Below are positions 1 to 38,973 of a stretch of 40,525 nucleotides of DNA, in pieces. The stretch comes from a virus. Lineage: Duplodnaviria; Heunggongvirae; Uroviricota; Caudoviricetes. Positions within the stretch are counted from its first letter, which is position 1. Each line of letters starts with the position of its first letter. The notes under the pieces were generated by a model. It was given only the letters and a program-made list of their open reading frames with translations. It was not told the DNA's origin and did no database searches. A program made the position numbers and the translations under genes. Location of the stretch: IMG/VR virus record IMGVR_UViG_2734482565_000012. The stretch is one strand, 5' to 3'.

Positions 1-63
1 CGTGGACTTCAGGTTGTCCTTCGCTTCGCGCGGGGTATGCCCCTTACTGCTGCCTTTACCCAT
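1..63 (-). CDS. J: tail tip / host-specificity protein J, first 21 codons only; gene continues beyond window start
   Basis: Minus-strand ATG at 61-63 translates MGKGSSKGHTPREAKDNLKST, matching the lambda J N-terminus as recalled; lies about 60 nt downstream of the I stop. Confidence 0.7.
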   Translation of the reverse strand, partial: MGKGSSKGHTPREAKDNLKST

Positions 64-123
64 TCCTCACGCTCCATAAACGACAAAACCGCCCGCAGGC
101 GGTTTCTCATAAAACATTTTGCA

Positions 124-646
124 TCAGCGACCAATCACCACAACCTGACCACCATCCCCTTCGTCTGCCGTGCTGATCTCCTGAGAAACCACACGTGACC
201 CCACGCGCATTTCCCCGTACAGAACAGGCAGAACATTACCCTGGGCAACCATGTTATCCAGTGACGAGAAATACGTGTTCTGTTTGCCGTTATCTGTACT
301 GGCTGCCGTGGGCGTCCTGGCTTTCGGTGCCAGCATCTGCGCCACACCACCCAGGATCATACTGGCCCCTGCTGCATACATACCCGATACAGCCGCGGCC
401 CCCAGCCAGCCCACAGGGTTCCACCATGCCACCGCAATCAGCGCCGCACCCAGCACCGCCTGAAACACACCGCCACTTTTGGCACCCGCCAGACGCGGAA
501 CGATGTGGATCACGGCACCATTTGCCAGCGGTTCATTAAGACGGGCAGATAATTCATTTTCGCCTGCATCACGCCCGGCAATGCGCACCTGATACCAGCC
601 GTCGCTCAGTTTCTGACGAAATGCCGGGAGCTGTGTGGCCAGTGCC
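124..646 (-). CDS. I: tail assembly protein I, 5' end lost in assembly gap
   Basis: ORF 124..588 has near-identity to lambda gpI C-terminal two-thirds as recalled. The frame stays open upstream of the listed GTG (..ALATQLPAFRQKLSDGWYQVRIAGRD..) up to the N-run at 647. Confidence 0.85.
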
Positions 647-21398: not shown

Positions 21399-21794
21399 CT
21401 AACCTCGCATGTCAAAGCCAGATTTCTGAAAATCTCTGTAGACTTCCGGATTGTTGAAGGCCGGAAATTTGGCTTTATGAGCTGCGGACTTTATCGCTTC
21501 GCAATAGGCTTTATCACCGTTACTGGTAGATATTTTTAACGCCGTGCCATCCTGAGAGAATTCCATATGCAACCTGCATTTTTTCCCTTTCCAGTTATGC
21601 GGCTCATCAAGTTTGGCATTAATTGCAGCTCTGATTCCCCGCGCTTGCGCCCCCCATTCATCCTGATCATCCCAGCGTCCTGAACTGCAACTACCTGTAG
21701 CAGTAGTTTTGTGGCAATCTGAAGGGTGTAAAGGTGTGCATCCCGCAACAAAACCGACCCAAAAAGTCAACATAACGATTTTCTTTAATCCCAC
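21399..21794 (-). CDS. lipoprotein with TolA C-terminal (domain III)-like domain, paralog 1
   Basis: 131 aa; signal peptide plus lipobox FVAGC, +2 Thr; C-terminal ..KGKKCRLHMEFSQDGTALKISTSNGDKAYCEAIKSAAHKAKFPAFNNPEVYRDFQ.. matches the TolA C-terminal pattern. Confidence 0.7.
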   Translation of the reverse strand: MGLKKIVMLTFWVGFVAGCTPLHPSDCHKTTATGSCSSGRWDDQDEWGAQARGIRAAINAKLDEPHNWKGKKCRLHMEFSQDGTALKISTSNGDKAYCEAIKSAAHKAKFPAFNNPEVYRDFQKSGFDMRG

Positions 21795-21944
21795 TTCTTG
21801 CTCCTCAATCCATTAAAATCTCAGCAATAGTAGTTGTTACGTCCGCCACTGGCTCAGAGCTGACTATCCGCTAAATTTAGCTCAGTGCCGTAGCTGTGTC
21901 AGAACAAACCTAAGCCGAAACCGTTTATTACAAAACAATAAATA

Positions 21945-22373
21945 TCAGGGTTTAAAATCCAGCACCCCATTTTGAAATACTTTATATACTTCCGGCGAAG
22001 GGGGGGCAGGTATATCAGCATTCTTTATCGCATTCATCGCTTCACGACATAAATCGAGGTCTCCACTTTCTCTTTTAACCTCCAGTAGAAGGCCATTCGG
22101 GGCCATATGCATTCTCAGTGTACACTCTTTTCCTGAATACTTACTCGCATCCCCGAACTGTTTTTCGATGGCGCTCTTGATTTGATGGGCATACAGACGG
22201 ATATCCTCACTAACATCAGAAGTACGTTCAGATGAACTCACATACTGTGTCTCTATTGCTTTATCGGAGTAATATGATGTACGGTCATGATAATTTGTCG
22301 ATACAGCATCAGTGCACCCGATAATAATCCCACTAATAATCAACGTAAGAATTGATGCGCTACGAAAACCCAT
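21945..22373 (-). CDS. lipoprotein with TolA C-terminal (domain III)-like domain, paralog 2
   Basis: 142 aa; lipobox IIIGC, +2 Thr; C-terminal ..YAHQIKSAIEKQFGDASKYSGKECTLRMHMAPNGLLLEVKRESGDLDLCREAMNAIKNADIPAPPSPEVYKVFQNGVLDFKP closely parallels the E. coli TolA C-terminus as recalled (..AGQIKSAIESKFYDASSYAGKTCTLRIKLAPDGMLLDIKPEGGDPALC..VYEVFKNAPLDFKP). Confidence 0.75.
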   Translation of the reverse strand: MGFRSASILTLIISGIIIGCTDAVSTNYHDRTSYYSDKAIETQYVSSSERTSDVSEDIRLYAHQIKSAIEKQFGDASKYSGKECTLRMHMAPNGLLLEVKRESGDLDLCREAMNAIKNADIPAPPSPEVYKVFQNGVLDFKP

Positions 22374-22537
22374 TTTTCCTCACATATGTCATATAGTAAA
22401 GGATTATATATACCGTTGTTTTGGACGCTCAAACAGCGAATCAGATCAAATAAAACGCACATTTGTTAACATTTACACAAAGTCTGCGTGGGATATTCTG
22501 AAAGAATATCCATAATGTGGAGAGAATCTATTGAAGT

Positions 22538-22640
22538 GCATGGTGCCGGGTGCCTCCCGGTGAACAAAATGTTCGTGATACCTGTCGGCGACAGAAAAGG
22601 TTAATGGTATCACCCCACCGCACAGGGGGATTCACCATGC
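22538..22640. repeat. dense cluster of nested inverted repeats in the leader of the late operon
   Basis: gcatggtg(22538)...caccatgc(22640) outer arms; ccggg-tgcct-cccgg; gaaca-aaa-tgttc; gtgatacc...ggtatcac enclosing palindrome ctgtcgGcgacag. Confidence 0.4.
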
Positions 22641-22960
22641 AGGAGTTTTCTTAGCAAACTCACTGCGCGCCCGGCAACTCCCAACCACATAAAATGCGGA
22701 GTTTGTGGCATTTATGCATATAACTCGCAGGAATTATCTTAAAAAACTGATGTCGATCCGGATTAAAAAGAAGCAGGTCATCATCAGATGACTGGAAAAA
22801 AGGAAAACAAAAAATACTCATCATACAGTTTTGATTGCAGGGATGAGCCTGCTATGCACAATATGCAGAATATAAGCAAGATAAAAATATGCAGGCATAT
22901 TATTTCGGATCTTGTTATTAACACAACCTTTTTAATAATCATTTGGCATACAATAAACCA

Positions 22961-22990
22961 GCCCAAAAAGAACCGCCTAAACAGGCGGTT
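22961..22990 (-). terminator. intrinsic terminator-like hairpin in the Q to late-operon interval
   Basis: aaccgcc-taaaca-ggcggtt stem; on the minus strand it is followed by UCUUUUUGGG. Confidence 0.4.
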
Positions 22991-23310
22991 GGTCAATACA
23001 AAGGATGCTTCGTCTTTATTATAGTAATCTGAGGCGTCGGGTGTCTTGTATCAGACAACATATTGTCCCGCTAAACAGCGAATTACAAACCACCCTGCAA
23101 TGATCTCTCATCTCATTTTATATGAGTTGACGACATCAGGATAACGCATCATCAGCCCCTGCCAAGAAATATCAAAACTCCCGCCAGCAATGTGTTATCA
23201 CAATATTGTAAAAAAAACACAGCACCGAAACTATAACTGGTCTCTGTTATAATTTGGAGCAGAAAGACCAGTTGCCCAACTAGCAGCATTCTCCCCTGCT
23301 TTCCTGACGT

Positions 23311-23337
23311 AAAAAAACCGCATTAAGCGGTTTTTTT
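23311..23337. terminator. bidirectional intrinsic terminator-like hairpin just downstream of the Q-like gene
   Basis: aaaaaaa-ccgc-attaa-gcgg-ttttttt: perfect stem flanked by an A-run and a T-run, so terminator-competent on both strands. Confidence 0.55.
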
Positions 23338-23417
23338 ACGATGTCCATGTCTGCAATCCGCCTCGCGATACAGCTTTGCGAAGCATAGCAAAATTGAAGC
23401 AGTTTATACGTAAGAAA

Positions 23418-23960
23418 TCAAGCCATTTTCTCAGCAAATGATTCACGCATGGGAATATATAGGGCATACTCAGCAACAGCTAACCAATTAGCAATCCGTT
23501 TTTCGCATGTGCTAAAACACCACTCTGGGTGTGCATCATTTAGCAATTCAGCCATTTTGCGCTTAGTCATCCCCCGCCCTTCATAGCGTTGCCGGAGAAT
23601 GCAAATCAATCCTGGATGCTCTGCCAGCACCTCACTTATGACTCGATCAATACATAACGCCTCTGCATCAGTACAATGCGCCAGCCAGCTCTTTTGCTTG
23701 CCGTTGATCATCTCTCGCAAAAACGCTTCCAGCTCAGCTTTCTCTATTCCCGCTTTTTTCATTCTGCGCAGGGCTTCATTAATGGCTGTTTTCGTCAGTT
23801 TTTTGGATGCCAACAACTGATTGAACATATTCCCTGACCTGCCACCGCCAATATACGACCAGCGCCCCCACATACGTAGTTTTCCCTGAATCCAGACACT
23901 TTCCAGCGTGGTGAGGCGAAGGTGTTCTCCGCTTTTTCCTGTATTCGTTGGGTAAATCAT
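23418..23960 (-). CDS. putative late antiterminator (Q-like)
   Basis: 180 aa; last gene before the terminator-rich interval preceding the lysis genes; basic protein with Cys/His residues. Called by position; family not verified. Confidence 0.45.
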   Translation of the reverse strand: MIYPTNTGKSGEHLRLTTLESVWIQGKLRMWGRWSYIGGGRSGNMFNQLLASKKLTKTAINEALRRMKKAGIEKAELEAFLREMINGKQKSWLAHCTDAEALCIDRVISEVLAEHPGLICILRQRYEGRGMTKRKMAELLNDAHPEWCFSTCEKRIANWLAVAEYALYIPMRESFAEKMA

Positions 23961-33214: not shown

Positions 33215-33370
33215 ATGCAAAAAATCGACCTCGGCAACAACGAATCCCTGGTGTGCGGCGTGTTCCCCAACCAGGATGGAACGTTCACTGCCATGACGTA
33301 TACCAAAAGCAAAACATTTAAAACCGAAACTGGTGCGCGCCGATGGTTGGAGAAGCACACAGTAAGCTAA
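33215..33370 (+). CDS. ydaF: small protein YdaF-like (51 aa)
   Basis: MQKIDLGNNESLVCGVFPNQDGTFTAMTYTKSKTFKTETGARRWLEKHTVS*; below ORF-track cutoff; convergent with sieB. Confidence 0.55.
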   Translation: MQKIDLGNNESLVCGVFPNQDGTFTAMTYTKSKTFKTETGARRWLEKHTVS

Positions 33371-33855
33371 CGATTAAAACGTCTACTCCTGCTGTTCCAG
33401 AATAACTTCATAAAATGGGAGTATTTTTCGGTGACGAGATAATAAGAACAGTTTGCGCTATCACTCTGATGTTGAATGATGCCCTTCCGTTCTAATTTTT
33501 TCATAACCGGGTTACGGCAAGGAGAAGTGATAATAAGATTTCCTGTTTTAAGGAAATCTTTAAATACAGCGATTTCTTTCTCAGATAAACGAAGCAATAC
33601 TCGTTGCTCTGGTAGTAATGAATAATGCTTTTGAATATGTGCTCGCAATCTTGAGAAGGAAATGGCGACCACGAAAGAAAAGGCAAAAACGATAATCTGA
33701 AAGAGCCAAGGTATTTCAGTATAAGCATTGAATGCGACAGTAAACTCTTTCGGTATCAGCCAGAGAGTGAGACCAAAAATGATAATCGTATACATAAGTA
33801 TTTCGAGTGGCTCGTTAGCAAAAAGTTTCAACAATGGAGTAAATACATCCAACAT
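33367..33855 (-). CDS. sieB: superinfection exclusion protein SieB
   Basis: 162 aa from MLDVFTPLLKLFANEPLEILMYTIIIFGLTLWLIPKEF..; two TM segments; matches Rac SieB as recalled. Confidence 0.8.
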   Translation of the reverse strand: MLDVFTPLLKLFANEPLEILMYTIIIFGLTLWLIPKEFTVAFNAYTEIPWLFQIIVFAFSFVVAISFSRLRAHIQKHYSLLPEQRVLLRLSEKEIAVFKDFLKTGNLIITSPCRNPVMKKLERKGIIQHQSDSANCSYYLVTEKYSHFMKLFWNSRSRRFNR

Positions 33856-34296
33856 ATCAATAACTCTCAACTGTAAGGGTATTGAAATGTTAACACAAGC
33901 TCTCGCTGTAGGGGTATAGCCGAGACCACCGAAGCCCGGAGGTGGTGAAATAAAACCGGGCACAACACGAAGGCGCATTTCCGATATCCATAAAGAGTCG
34001 GTCTTGTCTGTTAAATTTAAATGGTGGGAGTGCGCCTCCGGTTGTAAATAACGACATTGCTGTGTGTAGTCCTGGCGGCATCAGTTTTTTTCTTGAAGTT
34101 CGGCTGATGTCCGCCCTTTTTAAAGTGAATTTTGTGATGCGGTGAATGCGGCTAAGCGCACGTGGCACAGTTAAAAGTCATGTTAGTCCTTATTGGTTTG
34201 GGTGGGAAAGCCGACTGTAATTGTTAACTGGTTGCAGTCACCTGGAGGCACCAGGCACCGCATCAACAAAGTTCATTTGTAAAAATGGAGATAATT

Positions 34297-34518
34297 ATGA
34301 TTGCACATCACTTCGGAACTGATGAAATACCACGTCAGTGTGTGACTCCTGGCGATTATGTTCTTCATGAAGGCCGGACATATATTGCCTCGGCAAACAA
34401 TATTAAAAAGCGAAAACTATATATTCGTAACCTGACCACAAAAACATGCATTACTGACCGCATGATTAAAGTCTTCCTCGGTCGTGATGGTTTACCTGTA
34501 AAGGCGGAGTCATGGTGA
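34297..34518 (+). CDS. kilR: FtsZ inhibitor KilR
   Basis: 73 aa [73 protein letters not shown], matches Rac KilR as recalled. Confidence 0.85.
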
Positions 34519-38597: not shown

Positions 38598-38792
38598 ATG
38601 AGATATGACAATGTTAAACCATGTCCATTTTGTGGTTGTCCATCAGTAACGGTGAAAGCCATTTCAGGATATTACCGAGCGAAGTGTAACGGATGCGAAT
38701 CCCGAACCGGTTATGGTGGAAGTGAAAAAGAAGCACTCGAACGATGAAATAAACGAACCACTGGAAATAATAATGGAGGTGTTCATGTATAA
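38598..38792 (+). pseudogene. ralR: ralR (restriction-alleviation / type I toxin) frame with in-frame TGA at codon 50
   Basis: ATG 38598: MRYDNVKPCPFCGCPSVTVKAISGYYRAKCNGCESRTGYGGSEKEALER then TGA (38745-38747); the same frame stays open 14 more codons (NKRTTGNNNGGVHV) to TAA at 38790-38792. Confidence 0.5.
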
Positions 38793-38973
38793 AATTACCG
38801 CCACTATTGAAAAGGAAGGTGGCACTCCTACTAACTGGACAAGATATTCAAAATCTAAACTAACGAAATCAGAATGCGAAAAAATGCTCTCAGGTAAAAA
38901 AGAAGCAGGCGTTTCCAGAGAGCAGAAAGTAAAACTGATAAATTTTAATTGCGAGAAACTTCAGTCCTCGTGA
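38785..38973 (+). CDS. ydaC: YdaC-like small protein
   Basis: GGAGG SD then ATG at 38785; MYKITATIEKEGGTPTNWTRYSKSKLTKSECEKMLSGKKEAGVSREQKVKLINFNCEKLQSS. Confidence 0.65.
   Translation: MYKITATIEKEGGTPTNWTRYSKSKLTKSECEKMLSGKKEAGVSREQKVKLINFNCEKLQSS

What the first reader, a model, noticed from the sequence alone, without database searches (positions are those of the whole stretch)
22538..22640. Compact cluster of nested inverted repeats in the leader of the late operon
Within about 100 nt there are four inverted-repeat elements: outer arms gcatggtg/caccatgc, ccggg-tgcct-cccgg, gaaca-aaa-tgttc, and gtgatacc/ggtatcac enclosing the palindrome ctgtcgGcgacag. It lies between the terminator-like hairpins downstream of the Q-like gene and the first late gene. 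Such density suggests a structured RNA element (Q-utilisation or pause site, processing site) or a protein-binding DNA site. I found no tRNA-like T-loop motif.
Basis: seen in the sequence. Interest (0 to 1): 0.45.

Follow-up and report, generated by a model that had tools for sequence, protein, structure and literature searches.

The report
Prophage STnc100 small-RNA structured core
The cluster of inverted repeats is the folded core of a known prophage small RNA family (Rfam STnc100, related to PasD and EcOnc27) lying between the Q-like gene and the lysis genes, so it is a genuine structured RNA but not a new kind of element or a Q-utilisation site.

Summary
Window 22538-22640 holds nested inverted repeats that fold better than every shuffle tested. 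On the minus strand, which also carries the Q-like and lysis genes, this interval is the core of an Rfam STnc100 (RF02076) match at 22484-22670, scoring 86.6 bits against a gathering score of 47.

I parsed 181 distinct relatives from viral contigs and Enterobacterales genomes. The core is a five-way junction: P1, P2, P3, P4 and P5. Covariation is strong: 97.4% of cells are paired versus 86% in shuffles, and 15 pairs carry compensatory changes. Most members add a pseudoknot between the strand after P3 and the P4 loop. Many carry a sigma-70-like -10/-35 signal that would start transcription at P1. About 56% have an intrinsic terminator 17-30 nt downstream.

The window copy differs in three ways. 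P3 is lengthened to 8 bp, there is no pseudoknot, and the terminator module is replaced.

Published work shows that family members are expressed in lysogens and bind Hfq; their function is unresolved.

The element is about 780 nt from the Q-like gene. The family occurs with three different Q families, and a divergent copy sits upstream of kilR in this window. A Q-utilisation or pause role is therefore not supported. Verdict: an already known family, of modest interest.

The parts
22484..22670 (-). Full match to Rfam RF02076 STnc100, model positions 1-206
   Evidence: cmscan scores 86.6 bits against a gathering score of 47, E = 2.3e-17. It folds with z = -4.08.
22538..22640 (-). Five-way-junction core (P1-P5); this is the interval of the finding
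   Evidence: The MFE is a closed five-way junction, -43.3 kcal/mol, z = -3.3. The family consensus and covariation agree with it.
22633..22640 (-). P1 5' strand (GCAUGGUG). It pairs with 22538-22545 (CACCAUGC).
   Evidence: Seven of the 8 P1 pairs show changes on both sides among 46 relatives. Across 130 distinct 5'/3' halves, pairs 3-8 are 98-100% canonical with 2 to 5 pair types each.
22613..22629 (-). P2 hairpin (CCCCC-UGUGC-GG-U-GGGG), preceded by the invariant linker AAU at 22630-22632
   Evidence: P2 is 99.6% paired in the register with one bulged base. AAU is 94-100% conserved in the genome set, which was not selected on this half.
22575..22613 (-). P3, an 8-bp helix here: G + UGAUACC (22606-22613) pairs with GGUAUCA + C (22575-22582). 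It encloses an AU-rich loop and the palindrome at 22582-22594.
   Evidence: The family P3 closing helix (G-C, C-G, N-N') covaries; the third pair has GC 19, AU 10, CG 7 and UA 5. The close relative H92 carries a compensatory C-G to U-A change in the extended helix. The inner palindrome is not kept in relatives.
22562..22574 (-). P4 mini-hairpin (GAAC-AUUUU-GUUC, or 5 bp with a 3-nt loop). The loop is too short for the family pseudoknot.
   Evidence: All 5 family P4 pairs show changes on both sides. In 80% of 181 members the P4 loop pairs with the strand after P3 over at least 6 bp. This copy cannot form that pairing.
22546..22560 (-). P5 hairpin CCGGG-AGGCA-CCCGG, joined directly to the P1 3' strand
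   Evidence: Positions are 95-100% conserved in the viral set, which was selected only on the 5' half. Compensatory CCUGG/CCAGG occurs in window copy 2 and in L104.
22648..22677 (-). Weak promoter-like sequence in the family-typical register: -35 TTGCCG (22672-22677), 18-nt spacer, TG (22655-22656), -10 TAAGAA (22648-22653)
   Evidence: Read from the sequence. Across 114 dereplicated upstream regions, TAnnnT peaks at -13 and -10, and TTG[AT]C at -37 to -33, relative to the first base of P1. This copy lacks the -7 T and fails the consensus scan.
22491..22511 (-). 3' AU-rich hairpin (GGAUAUUCU-UUC-AGAAUAUCC) with no U tract. It occupies the model position of the family terminator.
   Evidence: cmscan alignment. 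No terminator-like site lies within 80 nt downstream of P1 in this copy, whereas 120 of 215 family contexts have one.
23418..23960 (-). Q-like gene (DUF1133, weak Phage_antitermQ match) upstream in the same orientation
   Evidence: Pfam: PF06576 at 356 bits; PF06530 at 26.1 bits against a cut-off of 26. RefSeq annotates it as a DUF1133 family protein.
23305..23335 (-). Strong hairpin with a U run just downstream of the Q-like gene. This is the expected place of the late-promoter-proximal terminator.
   Evidence: Sequence AAAAAAACCGCUUAAUGCGGUUUUUUU. Several terminator-containing Rfam models align here weakly.
21945..22373 (-). First downstream gene, a TolA C-terminal-domain lipoprotein (moron) with its own promoter-like site at 22403-22432. 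A second one follows at 21399-21794, then holin, lysozyme and Rz.

Best explanation
The interval is the structured core of a copy of the prophage small-RNA family STnc100 (Rfam RF02076). This family includes or is related to EcOnc27/sRNA103 and PasD. The RNA is read on the minus strand, in the same direction as the Q-like and lysis genes.

The RNA folds into a five-way junction: P1 closes it, and P2, P3, P4 and P5 branch from it.

In most members the gene is a self-contained unit with four parts:
- a sigma-70-like promoter that would start transcription at the base of P1;
- the roughly 100-nt core, usually stiffened by a pseudoknot between the strand after P3 and the P4 loop;
- a 17-30-nt linker;
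- an intrinsic terminator.

According to the literature, members are expressed from resident prophages, depend on and bind Hfq, and contact mRNAs in trans. I infer that the compact core serves as a nuclease-resistant scaffold or recognition domain, and that Hfq-dependent pairing uses the linker or variable parts.

In this window copy the core is intact, with P3 lengthened to 8 bp in place of the pseudoknot. The promoter-like sequence is weak and the terminator module has been replaced. The core is therefore most likely made as the 5' part of a longer transcript that runs into the TolA-like moron and lysis genes, or as part of the Q-dependent late transcript. A discrete terminated sRNA is less likely.

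Shown here: family membership, strand, fold, covariation and genomic context. Taken from papers on other copies: expression and Hfq binding. Inferred: what the core does, and the transcript form in this copy.
For: - Rfam match well above the gathering score.
- Five helices confirmed on 46 diverse relatives: 97.4% of cells paired versus 86.0% in shuffles and 40-46% with slid partners; 15 pairs with double changes; covariation score 0.406 versus 0.170; 0 of 500 shuffles reach the observed value. P1 covaries across 130 distinct halves.
- Strand: G-U pairs are frequent, for example 24 of 46 at one P4 pair, while the A-C combinations that the opposite strand would need are rare.
- Pseudoknot: at least 6 contiguous bp in 80% of 181 members, versus 24%, 15% and 13% in three controls, with 110 distinct arm pairs of 5 bp or more.
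- Positional -10/-35 signal just upstream of P1.
- Terminator-like site after 56% of members versus 5% of shuffles.
- Same-strand neighbours: Q genes upstream; holin, lysozyme, Rz, NanS-p and porin genes downstream.
- Not coding: no frame stays open in most members and lengths are spread evenly modulo 3.
- Literature: 11 STnc100 copies are transcribed in EDL933 and one is confirmed by Northern blot (PMC5331693). EcOnc27/sRNA103 is an Hfq-bound sRNA downstream of stx2B that partially overlaps the STnc100 prediction (PMC12711010; PMC7873438). PasD is Hfq-dependent and was reported as a structural homologue of STnc100 (PMC8550237; bioRxiv 10.64898/2026.05.13.724894).
Against: - No expression, end-mapping or Hfq data exist for this copy or for its pseudoknot-less variant.
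- Its promoter-like sequence lacks the -7 T and fails a consensus scan, and it has no intrinsic terminator. It may not make a discrete sRNA at all.
- P2 and P5 and several unpaired bases (AAU, the AGGCA loop) are nearly invariant. That pattern is unusual for a mere base-pairing sRNA and hints at a different role for the core.
- No trans target is validated for any family member. Published effects of sRNA103 on fimZ and espA have no established mechanism.
- I found no above-background complementarity to the start regions of the genes downstream of each copy.
Confidence: 0.72

Rival explanations
1. The core is a complex-fold RNA whose main job is not base pairing. It could be a scaffold that binds a conserved host or phage protein or a small ligand, or a tRNA-like mimic. 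Its topology has five arms, with an 8-bp closing stem stacked on a 5-bp arm, as in class II or selenocysteine tRNAs. The variable parts would then only maintain the architecture.
For: - A five-way junction plus pseudoknot, with near-invariant unpaired bases (AAU linker, A before P5, AGGCA loop, GCG before P4) and near-invariant P2 and P5 stems across many Enterobacterales genera.
- The variable region keeps its structure while its sequence turns over completely; there are 110 distinct pseudoknot arm pairs.
- Two architectures, pseudoknot or long P3 with a mini P4, appear in different hosts, for example L143 from Enterobacter asburiae.
- Ribosome-footprint signal was reported on several copies.
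Against: - No Rfam riboswitch, ribozyme or tRNA model matches, even at E up to 10, and ARAGORN finds nothing.
- There is no conserved CCA or T-loop.
- No particular protein gene is always adjacent.
- Published data already tie members to Hfq and to RNA-RNA chimeras.
Confidence: 0.2
2. The element acts in cis on late transcription. It would be a Q-utilisation or pause site, a put-like antitermination RNA, or a processing or stability element of the late mRNA.
For: - It lies in the untranslated stretch between the Q-like gene and the lysis cassette, co-oriented with them.
- This copy has no terminator of its own, so it must be part of any read-through transcript.
- A stable 5' or internal structure could affect mRNA decay or processing.
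Against: - It is about 780 nt from the Q-like stop codon and beyond two terminator-like hairpins, whereas qut sites overlap the late promoter (established for lambda, 82 and 21; my own knowledge).
- The family sits behind three different Q families and in an early operon upstream of kilR.
- Most members are followed at once by a terminator, at which discrete sRNAs are reported to end. That is the opposite of what an antitermination RNA would give.
Confidence: 0.08
3. At this locus the element is a decaying remnant. Its conserved arms matter mainly as DNA, serving as short islands of homology where lambdoid prophages recombine and exchange the cargo genes carried between Q and the lysis genes.
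For: - Homology with Stx1 phages is limited to a 42-nt island covering P1 and P2.
- The commonest core type is joined to 7 different 3' flanks and 8 different 5' flanks, and the commonest 3' flank to 4 core types.
- In this copy the family linker and terminator are replaced exactly after P1 by the flank that leads to the TolA-like genes, and the same flank follows pseudoknot-type cores in L049 and L010.
- Weak promoter and no terminator.
Against: - The core keeps every helix, and close relatives show a compensatory change in P3. That argues for continued selection on the RNA.
- Family-wide covariation cannot be explained by DNA homology alone.
- Recombination at conserved sequence is a consequence that is compatible with an RNA function.
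Confidence: 0.15
4. The interval encodes a small protein, the 46-aa GTG ORF at 22473-22613 on the minus strand.
For: An ORF of 46 codons overlaps the element on the transcribed strand. Ribosome footprints were reported on some family copies.
Against: - No Pfam match.
- No reading frame stays open in more than a third of 181 members, and element lengths are spread over all three residues modulo 3.
- Variation follows base pairing, not codons.
Confidence: 0.02

Closest known systems
Rfam RF02076 STnc100 (Gammaproteobacterial sRNA STnc100)
   Same: Direct match at 86.6 bits against a gathering score of 47. It shares the conserved 5' (AUGGUGAAUCCCCC..GCGG.GGGG) and 3' (CACCGGGAGGCACCCGGCACCAU) halves, the P1, P2, P4 and P5 helices, and the prophage location between Q and the lysis genes.
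   Different: The middle domain differs. P3 is an 8-bp helix, P4 is a mini-hairpin, and the pseudoknot seen in about 80% of members is absent. The terminator hairpin of the model is replaced by an AU-rich hairpin with no U tract. The first 30 or so model positions coincide with promoter-like DNA rather than a conserved RNA leader.
EcOnc27 / sRNA103 of E. coli O157 (Hfq-bound sRNA just downstream of stx2B)
   Same: It partially overlaps an STnc100-model prediction in the late region of lambdoid prophages. It was detected by Northern blot and Hfq cross-linking. It sits between the late promoter and the lysis genes.
   Different: It lies after stx2B and has a canonical terminator. It forms a dyad with AsxR, and no AsxR or AgvB homologue was detected near the window copy. 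The window prophage is Rac-like and carries TolA-like cargo genes instead of stx.
PasD1/PasD2 of enteropathogenic E. coli
   Same: A prophage sRNA near a Q gene, Hfq-dependent, reported as a structural homologue of STnc100.
   Different: The authors state that BLAST with PasD does not find STnc100. I did not have the PasD sequence and could not compare it with either window copy.
Lambdoid qut sites and HK022 put RNAs (cis-acting antitermination signals)
   Same: They are non-coding signals in the leader of phage operons. put RNAs are also folded nascent RNAs.
   Different: qut sites overlap the late promoter and are specific to one Q family. put RNAs are two stem-loops directly after a promoter that make polymerase ignore terminators (my own knowledge). 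This element is far from the Q gene, occurs with three Q families and in an early operon, and is usually followed by a terminator where family sRNAs are reported to end.
Class II / selenocysteine-type tRNA cloverleaf
   Same: The topology is the only shared feature: five arms, an 8-bp closing stem continuous with a 5-bp arm, a short linker to a D-arm-like hairpin, and a variable-length arm.
   Different: There is no T-loop, no anticodon-loop geometry and no CCA. ARAGORN and the Rfam tRNA and tmRNA models do not match. The resemblance is a lead, not a test.

Membership tests
Rfam RF02076 STnc100 | Covariance-model score at or above the curated gathering score | tested here: met
   86.6 bits against 47, E = 2.3e-17, full model 1-206, minus strand 22484-22670.
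Rfam RF02076 STnc100 | Closing stem P1 with conserved flanking halves (GGUGAAUCCCC... and CACCGGGAGGCACCCGGCACC) | tested here: met
   The window copy carries both halves exactly. P1 covaries across the family.
Rfam RF02076 STnc100 | Internal hairpins P2, P4 and P5 of the model | tested here: met
   All are present in the MFE fold and in the model alignment. The cmscan alignment marks six non-canonical pairs in two short stems of the model's middle region. I regard those stems as spurious, because the family consensus there is P3 plus a pseudoknot.
Rfam RF02076 STnc100 | 3' intrinsic terminator (GC-rich hairpin plus U run) ending the sRNA | tested here: not met
   The model's last hairpin aligns to GGAUAUUCU-UUC-AGAAUAUCC followed by CACGCAG. 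No terminator-like site lies within 80 nt. 44% of the parsed family contexts also lack one by my scan, so this is not universal in the family.
Rfam RF02076 STnc100 | Location in lambdoid prophages between the Q gene and the lysis cassette, co-oriented with them | tested here: met
   for the window; for relatives.
Rfam RF02076 STnc100 | Expressed, Hfq-associated small RNA | not testable with these tools
   Shown for other copies only (PMC5331693, PMC7873438, PMC8550237).
Q-utilisation (qut) / Q-dependent pause site | Overlaps or directly follows the late promoter adjacent to the Q gene | tested here: not met
   The element starts about 780 nt after the Q-like stop codon (23418) and lies beyond terminator-like hairpins at 23305-23335 and 22971-22990.
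Q-utilisation (qut) / Q-dependent pause site | Specific to one Q protein family | tested here: not met
   The same conserved core is found downstream of PF03589, PF06530 and DUF1133 Q-type genes. A divergent copy lies upstream of kilR in the early region.
HK022 put-like antitermination RNA | Nascent RNA that makes polymerase read through downstream terminators | not tested
   There is indirect evidence against it. 56% of members are followed within 17-30 nt by a terminator, and discrete sRNAs of about 160-210 nt are reported.
tRNA / tmRNA | Recognised by tRNA or tmRNA detectors (cloverleaf with T-loop and anticodon loop) | tested here: not met
   ARAGORN finds 0 genes in the window. There is no tRNA or tmRNA hit in the Rfam E-value scan of 22300-23500.
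Known riboswitch or self-cleaving ribozyme classes | Match to a curated model | tested here: not met
   No such family appears among 20 matches at E up to 10.

The most novel reading that the evidence does not exclude
The STnc100/PasD core may not simply be the body of a base-pairing sRNA. It could be a widespread, conserved complex-fold RNA module: a five-way junction with a pseudoknot, invariant unpaired bases and a class II tRNA-like arm arrangement. Such a module could bind a specific host or phage factor or ligand. Lambdoid prophages of Enterobacterales place it upstream of host-killing functions, both the lysis genes and kilR. Neither the pseudoknot nor the second architecture (long P3, no pseudoknot) is mentioned in the one preprint I text-searched for 'pseudoknot', and neither is in the consensus structure line that cmscan printed for the Rfam model.
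Probability: 0.2. Interest if true: 0.65.

Novelty: already known. Interest (0 to 1): 0.3.

Why it matters
The main result is a correct label. An unannotated 1-kb gap in a Rac-like prophage contains a copy of a known prophage sRNA family. The identical or near-identical core is present in 564 of 5426 complete E. coli genomes.

The family matters because its members sit beside Shiga-toxin and lysis genes, bind Hfq, and have been linked statistically to clinical outcome, while their function is still unknown.

The comparative work here adds a sharper structural model: five helices with strong covariation, a pseudoknot, promoter and terminator registers, and a pseudoknot-less variant. It also shows a sub-threshold second subtype upstream of kilR, with matches in most E. 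coli genomes. Both results would help design probing and mutagenesis experiments and improve the Rfam model.

Tried and rejected
- tRNA or tmRNA: ARAGORN finds none.
- Other Rfam families in 22300-23500 at E up to 10: only weak, terminator-driven matches near 23305-23395.
- Solved-structure search with the Q-like protein: no hits.
- Antitoxin-like pairing of either window copy with the start regions of the genes downstream of it: not above shuffled controls. Copy 1 against the TolA-like, holin and lysozyme genes, and copy 2 against kilR and ydaE, give z between -0.55 and +1.23. The only low z-scores were copy 1 against the distant kilR and ydaE (-1.96 and -1.80) (one search timed out).
- Riboswitch-like alternative pairing between P2 and the common terminator GCCCCUCUCCGGAGGGGC. 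The similarity exists in E. coli Stx-type copies, but P2 variants do not co-vary with it, and other lineages use unrelated terminators (read sequences). Dropped.
- CsrA-type GGA motifs. The P2 GGA is not conserved (A, C or U at that position), and the P5 GGA straddles the stem. Dropped.
- Testing the pseudoknot with one fixed column register on the MAFFT alignment. The best register gives only 54% paired against a 39% median, because the register shifts between lineages. I replaced this with a per-sequence best-helix test and three controls.
- A strict consensus promoter scan finds sites in only 16 of 215 contexts. The positional analysis was more informative.
- Small ORF: rejected.
- The preprint on a CsrA-guiding sRNA that mentions PasD could not be opened.

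Full report
**Observation**

The 103 nt fold into one closed multi-branch structure: -43.3 kcal/mol, z = -3.3, with no shuffle of 200 as stable. The 187-nt stretch around it gives z = -4.1. ARAGORN finds no tRNA or tmRNA.

**Orientation and setting**

The local genes are all on the minus strand:
- DUF1367, YbcO-like and a Q-like DUF1133 protein (23418-23960);
- a gap of about 1 kb with no annotated gene;
- two TolA C-terminal-domain lipoproteins (21945-22373 and 21399-21794);
- P21-type holin, lysozyme, Rz and trkG.

The same arrangement is annotated in E. coli 13E0767, where nothing is annotated in the gap. This is a Rac-like prophage; a RalA sRNA lies at 38791-38969.

Reading the minus strand downstream of the Q-like stop codon, the features are:
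- a strong hairpin with a U run at 23305-23335;
- a promoter-like site followed by a terminator at 23047 to 22965;
- the element;
- a promoter-like site for the first TolA-like gene at 22403-22432.

**Identity**

The only Rfam families reaching their gathering scores in the window are RalA and STnc100 (RF02076). STnc100 matches at 22484-22670 on the minus strand, at 86.6 bits against 47, over the full model length. The finding is the core of that match.

**Relatives**

A 14-nt pattern from the 5' half recovered 120 viral contigs. An 18-nt pattern from the 3' half recovered 120 stretches from species-representative genomes. The genome hits span Escherichia, Salmonella, Citrobacter, Enterobacter, Klebsiella, Raoultella, Kosakonia, Pantoea, Erwinia, Rahnella, Cedecea and others, plus a few chance hits in GC-rich genomes.

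A parser that requires the 3' core and P1 pairing gave 181 distinct elements of 91-150 nt. Each collection was selected on only one half of the element, so it gives an unbiased view of the other half:
- In the genome set, the 5' GGUGAAUCCCCCU..GCGG.GGGGC is mostly 78-100% conserved. Only the two variable P2-loop bases, the bulged base and two of the C/G pairing positions fall lower (49-77%).
- In the viral set, the 3' UCACCGGGAGGCACCCGGCACCA is 85-100% conserved.

**Fold**

RNAalifold on 46 diverse members predicts five helices around one junction:
- P1, 8 bp;
- an AAU linker;
- P2, CCC-CC/GG-N-GGG with one bulged base;
- P3, a short closing helix (G-C, C-G, N-N') that encloses a variable hairpin;
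- P4, 5 bp or more;
- a single A;
- P5, CCGGG-AGGCA-CCCGG, running straight into the 3' strand of P1.

Pair counting on that alignment gives 97.4% of cells paired. The comparison values are 86.0% in column shuffles and 40-46% when partners are slid by 1-3 columns. Fifteen pairs show changes on both sides, and the covariation score is 0.406 against 0.170; no shuffle of 500 reaches the observed values. P1 and P4 carry most of the compensatory changes. P2 and P5 are nearly invariant, although CCUGG/CCAGG occurs in P5.

Frequent G-U pairs and rare A-C combinations fix the transcribed strand as the window's minus strand.

**Pseudoknot**

In most members the 6-9 nt that follow P3 on the 5' side are complementary to the loop of P4. 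Examples are AUCAGC/GCUGGU, CUGGUG/CACCGG, AAUGAC/GUCAUU, ACUGGC/GCCAGU and CCAGUC/GACUGG.

I used a per-sequence best-helix search. At least 6 contiguous pairs occur in 80% of the 181 elements. The three controls give:
- 24% when the loop of a different element is used;
- 15% with shuffles of the element's own loop;
- 13% with the reversed loop.

There are 110 distinct arm pairs of at least 5 bp.

This search is fitted per sequence, and a single fixed register on the MAFFT alignment was uninformative. The pseudoknot is therefore well supported but not proven. It is absent from the consensus structure line that cmscan printed for the Rfam model. The preprint that compares PasD with STnc100 does not contain the word.

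**The window copy**

It has P1, P2 and P5 in consensus form. P3 is lengthened to 8 bp (G-UGAUACC with GGUAUCA-C). P4 is reduced to GAAC-AUUUU-GUUC, so the pseudoknot cannot form.

Close relatives in other E. coli genomes keep this design and show a compensatory C-G to U-A change in P3. The inner palindrome CUGUCGCCGACAG is not conserved among them. A similar design, long P3 with a mini P4, appears in an Enterobacter asburiae element, L143 (sequence).

This variant occurs in 564 of 5426 complete E. coli genomes, 452 of them at 99% identity or more. No feature is annotated under the match in any of the 30 records listed.

**Flanks**

Across 114 dereplicated upstream regions, TAnnnT hexamers pile up at -13 and -10, and TTG[AT]C at -37 to -33, relative to the first base of P1. 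This would place the transcription start at the base of P1. It also suggests that the first 30 or so positions of the Rfam model are promoter DNA.

A terminator-like hairpin with a U run follows within 80 nt, mostly 17-30 nt after P1, in 120 of 215 contexts against 5% of shuffles.

The window copy has TTGCCG, an 18-nt spacer and TG-n-TAAGAA in the same register. It lacks the -7 T and has no terminator. After P1, the family linker and terminator are replaced by the flank that leads to the TolA-like genes. Relatives H90 and H92, which have the same core design, do carry canonical terminators.

**Context and the Q hypothesis**

I clustered the ORFs within 3.5 kb of 244 element contexts. The real genes are co-oriented with the element. 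Upstream lie RusA, a methylase and Q proteins. Downstream lie holin, lysozyme, Rz, NanS-p esterase and KdgM-type porins.

The upstream Q proteins belong to three Pfam families: PF03589, PF06530 and DUF1133. Taken with the 780-nt distance from the Q-like gene and the intervening terminators, this rules against a Q-utilisation or pause site.

The elements are not coding. Neither window copy shows above-background complementarity to the start regions of the genes downstream of it.

**Mosaicism**

Homology with Stx1 phages is confined to a 42-nt island over P1 and P2. The same core type is joined to up to 7-8 different flanks, and the same flank to several core types. The conserved arms are evidently frequent recombination junctions between prophages. 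I regard this as a consequence of their conservation, not their purpose.

**Literature**

- EDL933 carries 11 STnc100 predictions, all with RNA-seq reads. One was confirmed by Northern blot, and some carry ribosome-footprint signal (PMC5331693).
- EcOnc27/sRNA103, an Hfq-bound sRNA, lies just downstream of stx2B and partially overlaps the STnc100 prediction. Pairs of Hfq-binding sRNAs sit between the late promoter and the lysis genes of at least eight Sakai prophages, for reasons the authors call unclear. Overexpression of sRNA103 raises fimZ and espA transcript levels by an unknown mechanism (PMC7873438, PMC12711010).
- PasD1 and PasD2 of EPEC are Hfq-dependent, abundant in RIL-seq, and reported as structural homologues of STnc100 (PMC8550237; bioRxiv 10.64898/2026.05.13.724894).
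- STnc100 RNA was detected in outer-membrane vesicles (PMC12370729).
- No paper I could read assigns a mechanism.

**Conclusion**

The finding is a real structured RNA element and a member of a known, experimentally detected prophage sRNA family.

This particular copy is a pseudoknot-less, terminator-less variant. It is most likely transcribed as part of a longer RNA that leads into the cargo and lysis genes.

What the conserved five-way junction actually does remains open. Its invariance leaves room for a role beyond base pairing, which I put at about 0.2.

Noticed in passing
window 34137-34263 (+); Rfam sub-threshold match 34118-34304: There is a second, divergent copy of the same fold. P1 is AUGCGGUG/CACCGCAU, and P5 is CCUGG-AGGCA-CCAGG, compensatory relative to the usual CCGGG/CCCGG. 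P2 has a different shape (GAAUGCGGCUAAGCGCACGUGG), and the AGUUAA/UUAACU pseudoknot arms are present. It scores only 35.5 bits against STnc100 (gathering score 47), so standard annotation misses it. It lies 22 nt upstream of the kilR-like ORF in the early region. The 261-nt stretch that contains it has matches in 4405 of 5426 complete E. coli genomes, and matches covering at least 80% of the stretch in 1838. The same subtype occurs in many Enterobacterales loci, for example L122, L125, L140, L189 and L219.
   Followed up: partly
window 34061-34116 (+): A DicF-like RNA (39.1 bits, below the gathering score of 48) with a terminator hairpin lies immediately before the second STnc100-like element and kilR. 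The arrangement parallels dicF-dicB in Qin: an sRNA followed by a cell-division inhibitor. SieB is encoded on the opposite strand at 33367-33978.
   Followed up: no
window 22965-23047 (-): A possible very small transcription unit: a promoter-like AAGACA-18-TATAAT (10 of 12 matches), followed about 25 nt later by the terminator AACCGCCUGUUUAGGCGGUU plus a U run. It would give an RNA of roughly 45-50 nt with a single-stranded 5' part, a typical Hfq-sRNA shape. No Rfam family matches it convincingly. It could be the partner in the 'dyads' of sRNAs described between late promoters and lysis genes.
   Followed up: no
window 23305-23417 (-): The stretch right after the Q-like gene ends in a strong, symmetric terminator (AAAAAAACCGCUUAAUGCGGUUUUUUU). 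It aligns weakly to IsrK and to leader or terminator models. This is the expected place of the late promoter and its short terminated transcript, analogous to lambda 6S RNA or StxS.
   Followed up: no
window 21399-22373 (-): Two tandem lipoprotein genes with TolA C-terminal domains (142 and 131 aa) sit as cargo genes between the sRNA element and the holin gene. The first has its own promoter-like site, TTGAGC-18-TATAAT, at 22403-22432. As phage-borne TolA-domain decoys they might interfere with Tol-dependent phage or colicin entry; I did not examine this.
   Followed up: no
L004:2735-3350 (viral contig IMGVR_UViG_2861053794_000003); also L173, L174, L209, L212, L227, L229: Family members occur in tandem arrays of 3-4 copies, spaced about 230-570 nt apart and carrying different variable domains. 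L004 holds a window-type (pseudoknot-less) copy next to pseudoknot-type copies.
   Followed up: partly
family alignment A2, columns 12-28 (window 22613-22629): P2 carries a conserved irregularity. In one register it is a bulged base; in the other it is a C-A, C-C or C-U mismatch, present in 119 of 130 distinct sequences. A minority of lineages replace it with a perfect 6-bp helix, for example CCCAUC/GAUGGG, CCUUUC/GAAAGG and CCUACC/GGUAGG.
   Followed up: partly
window 38791-38969 (-): A full-length RalA antitoxin sRNA (225 bits), confirming the Rac-type identity of the prophage.
   Followed up: no
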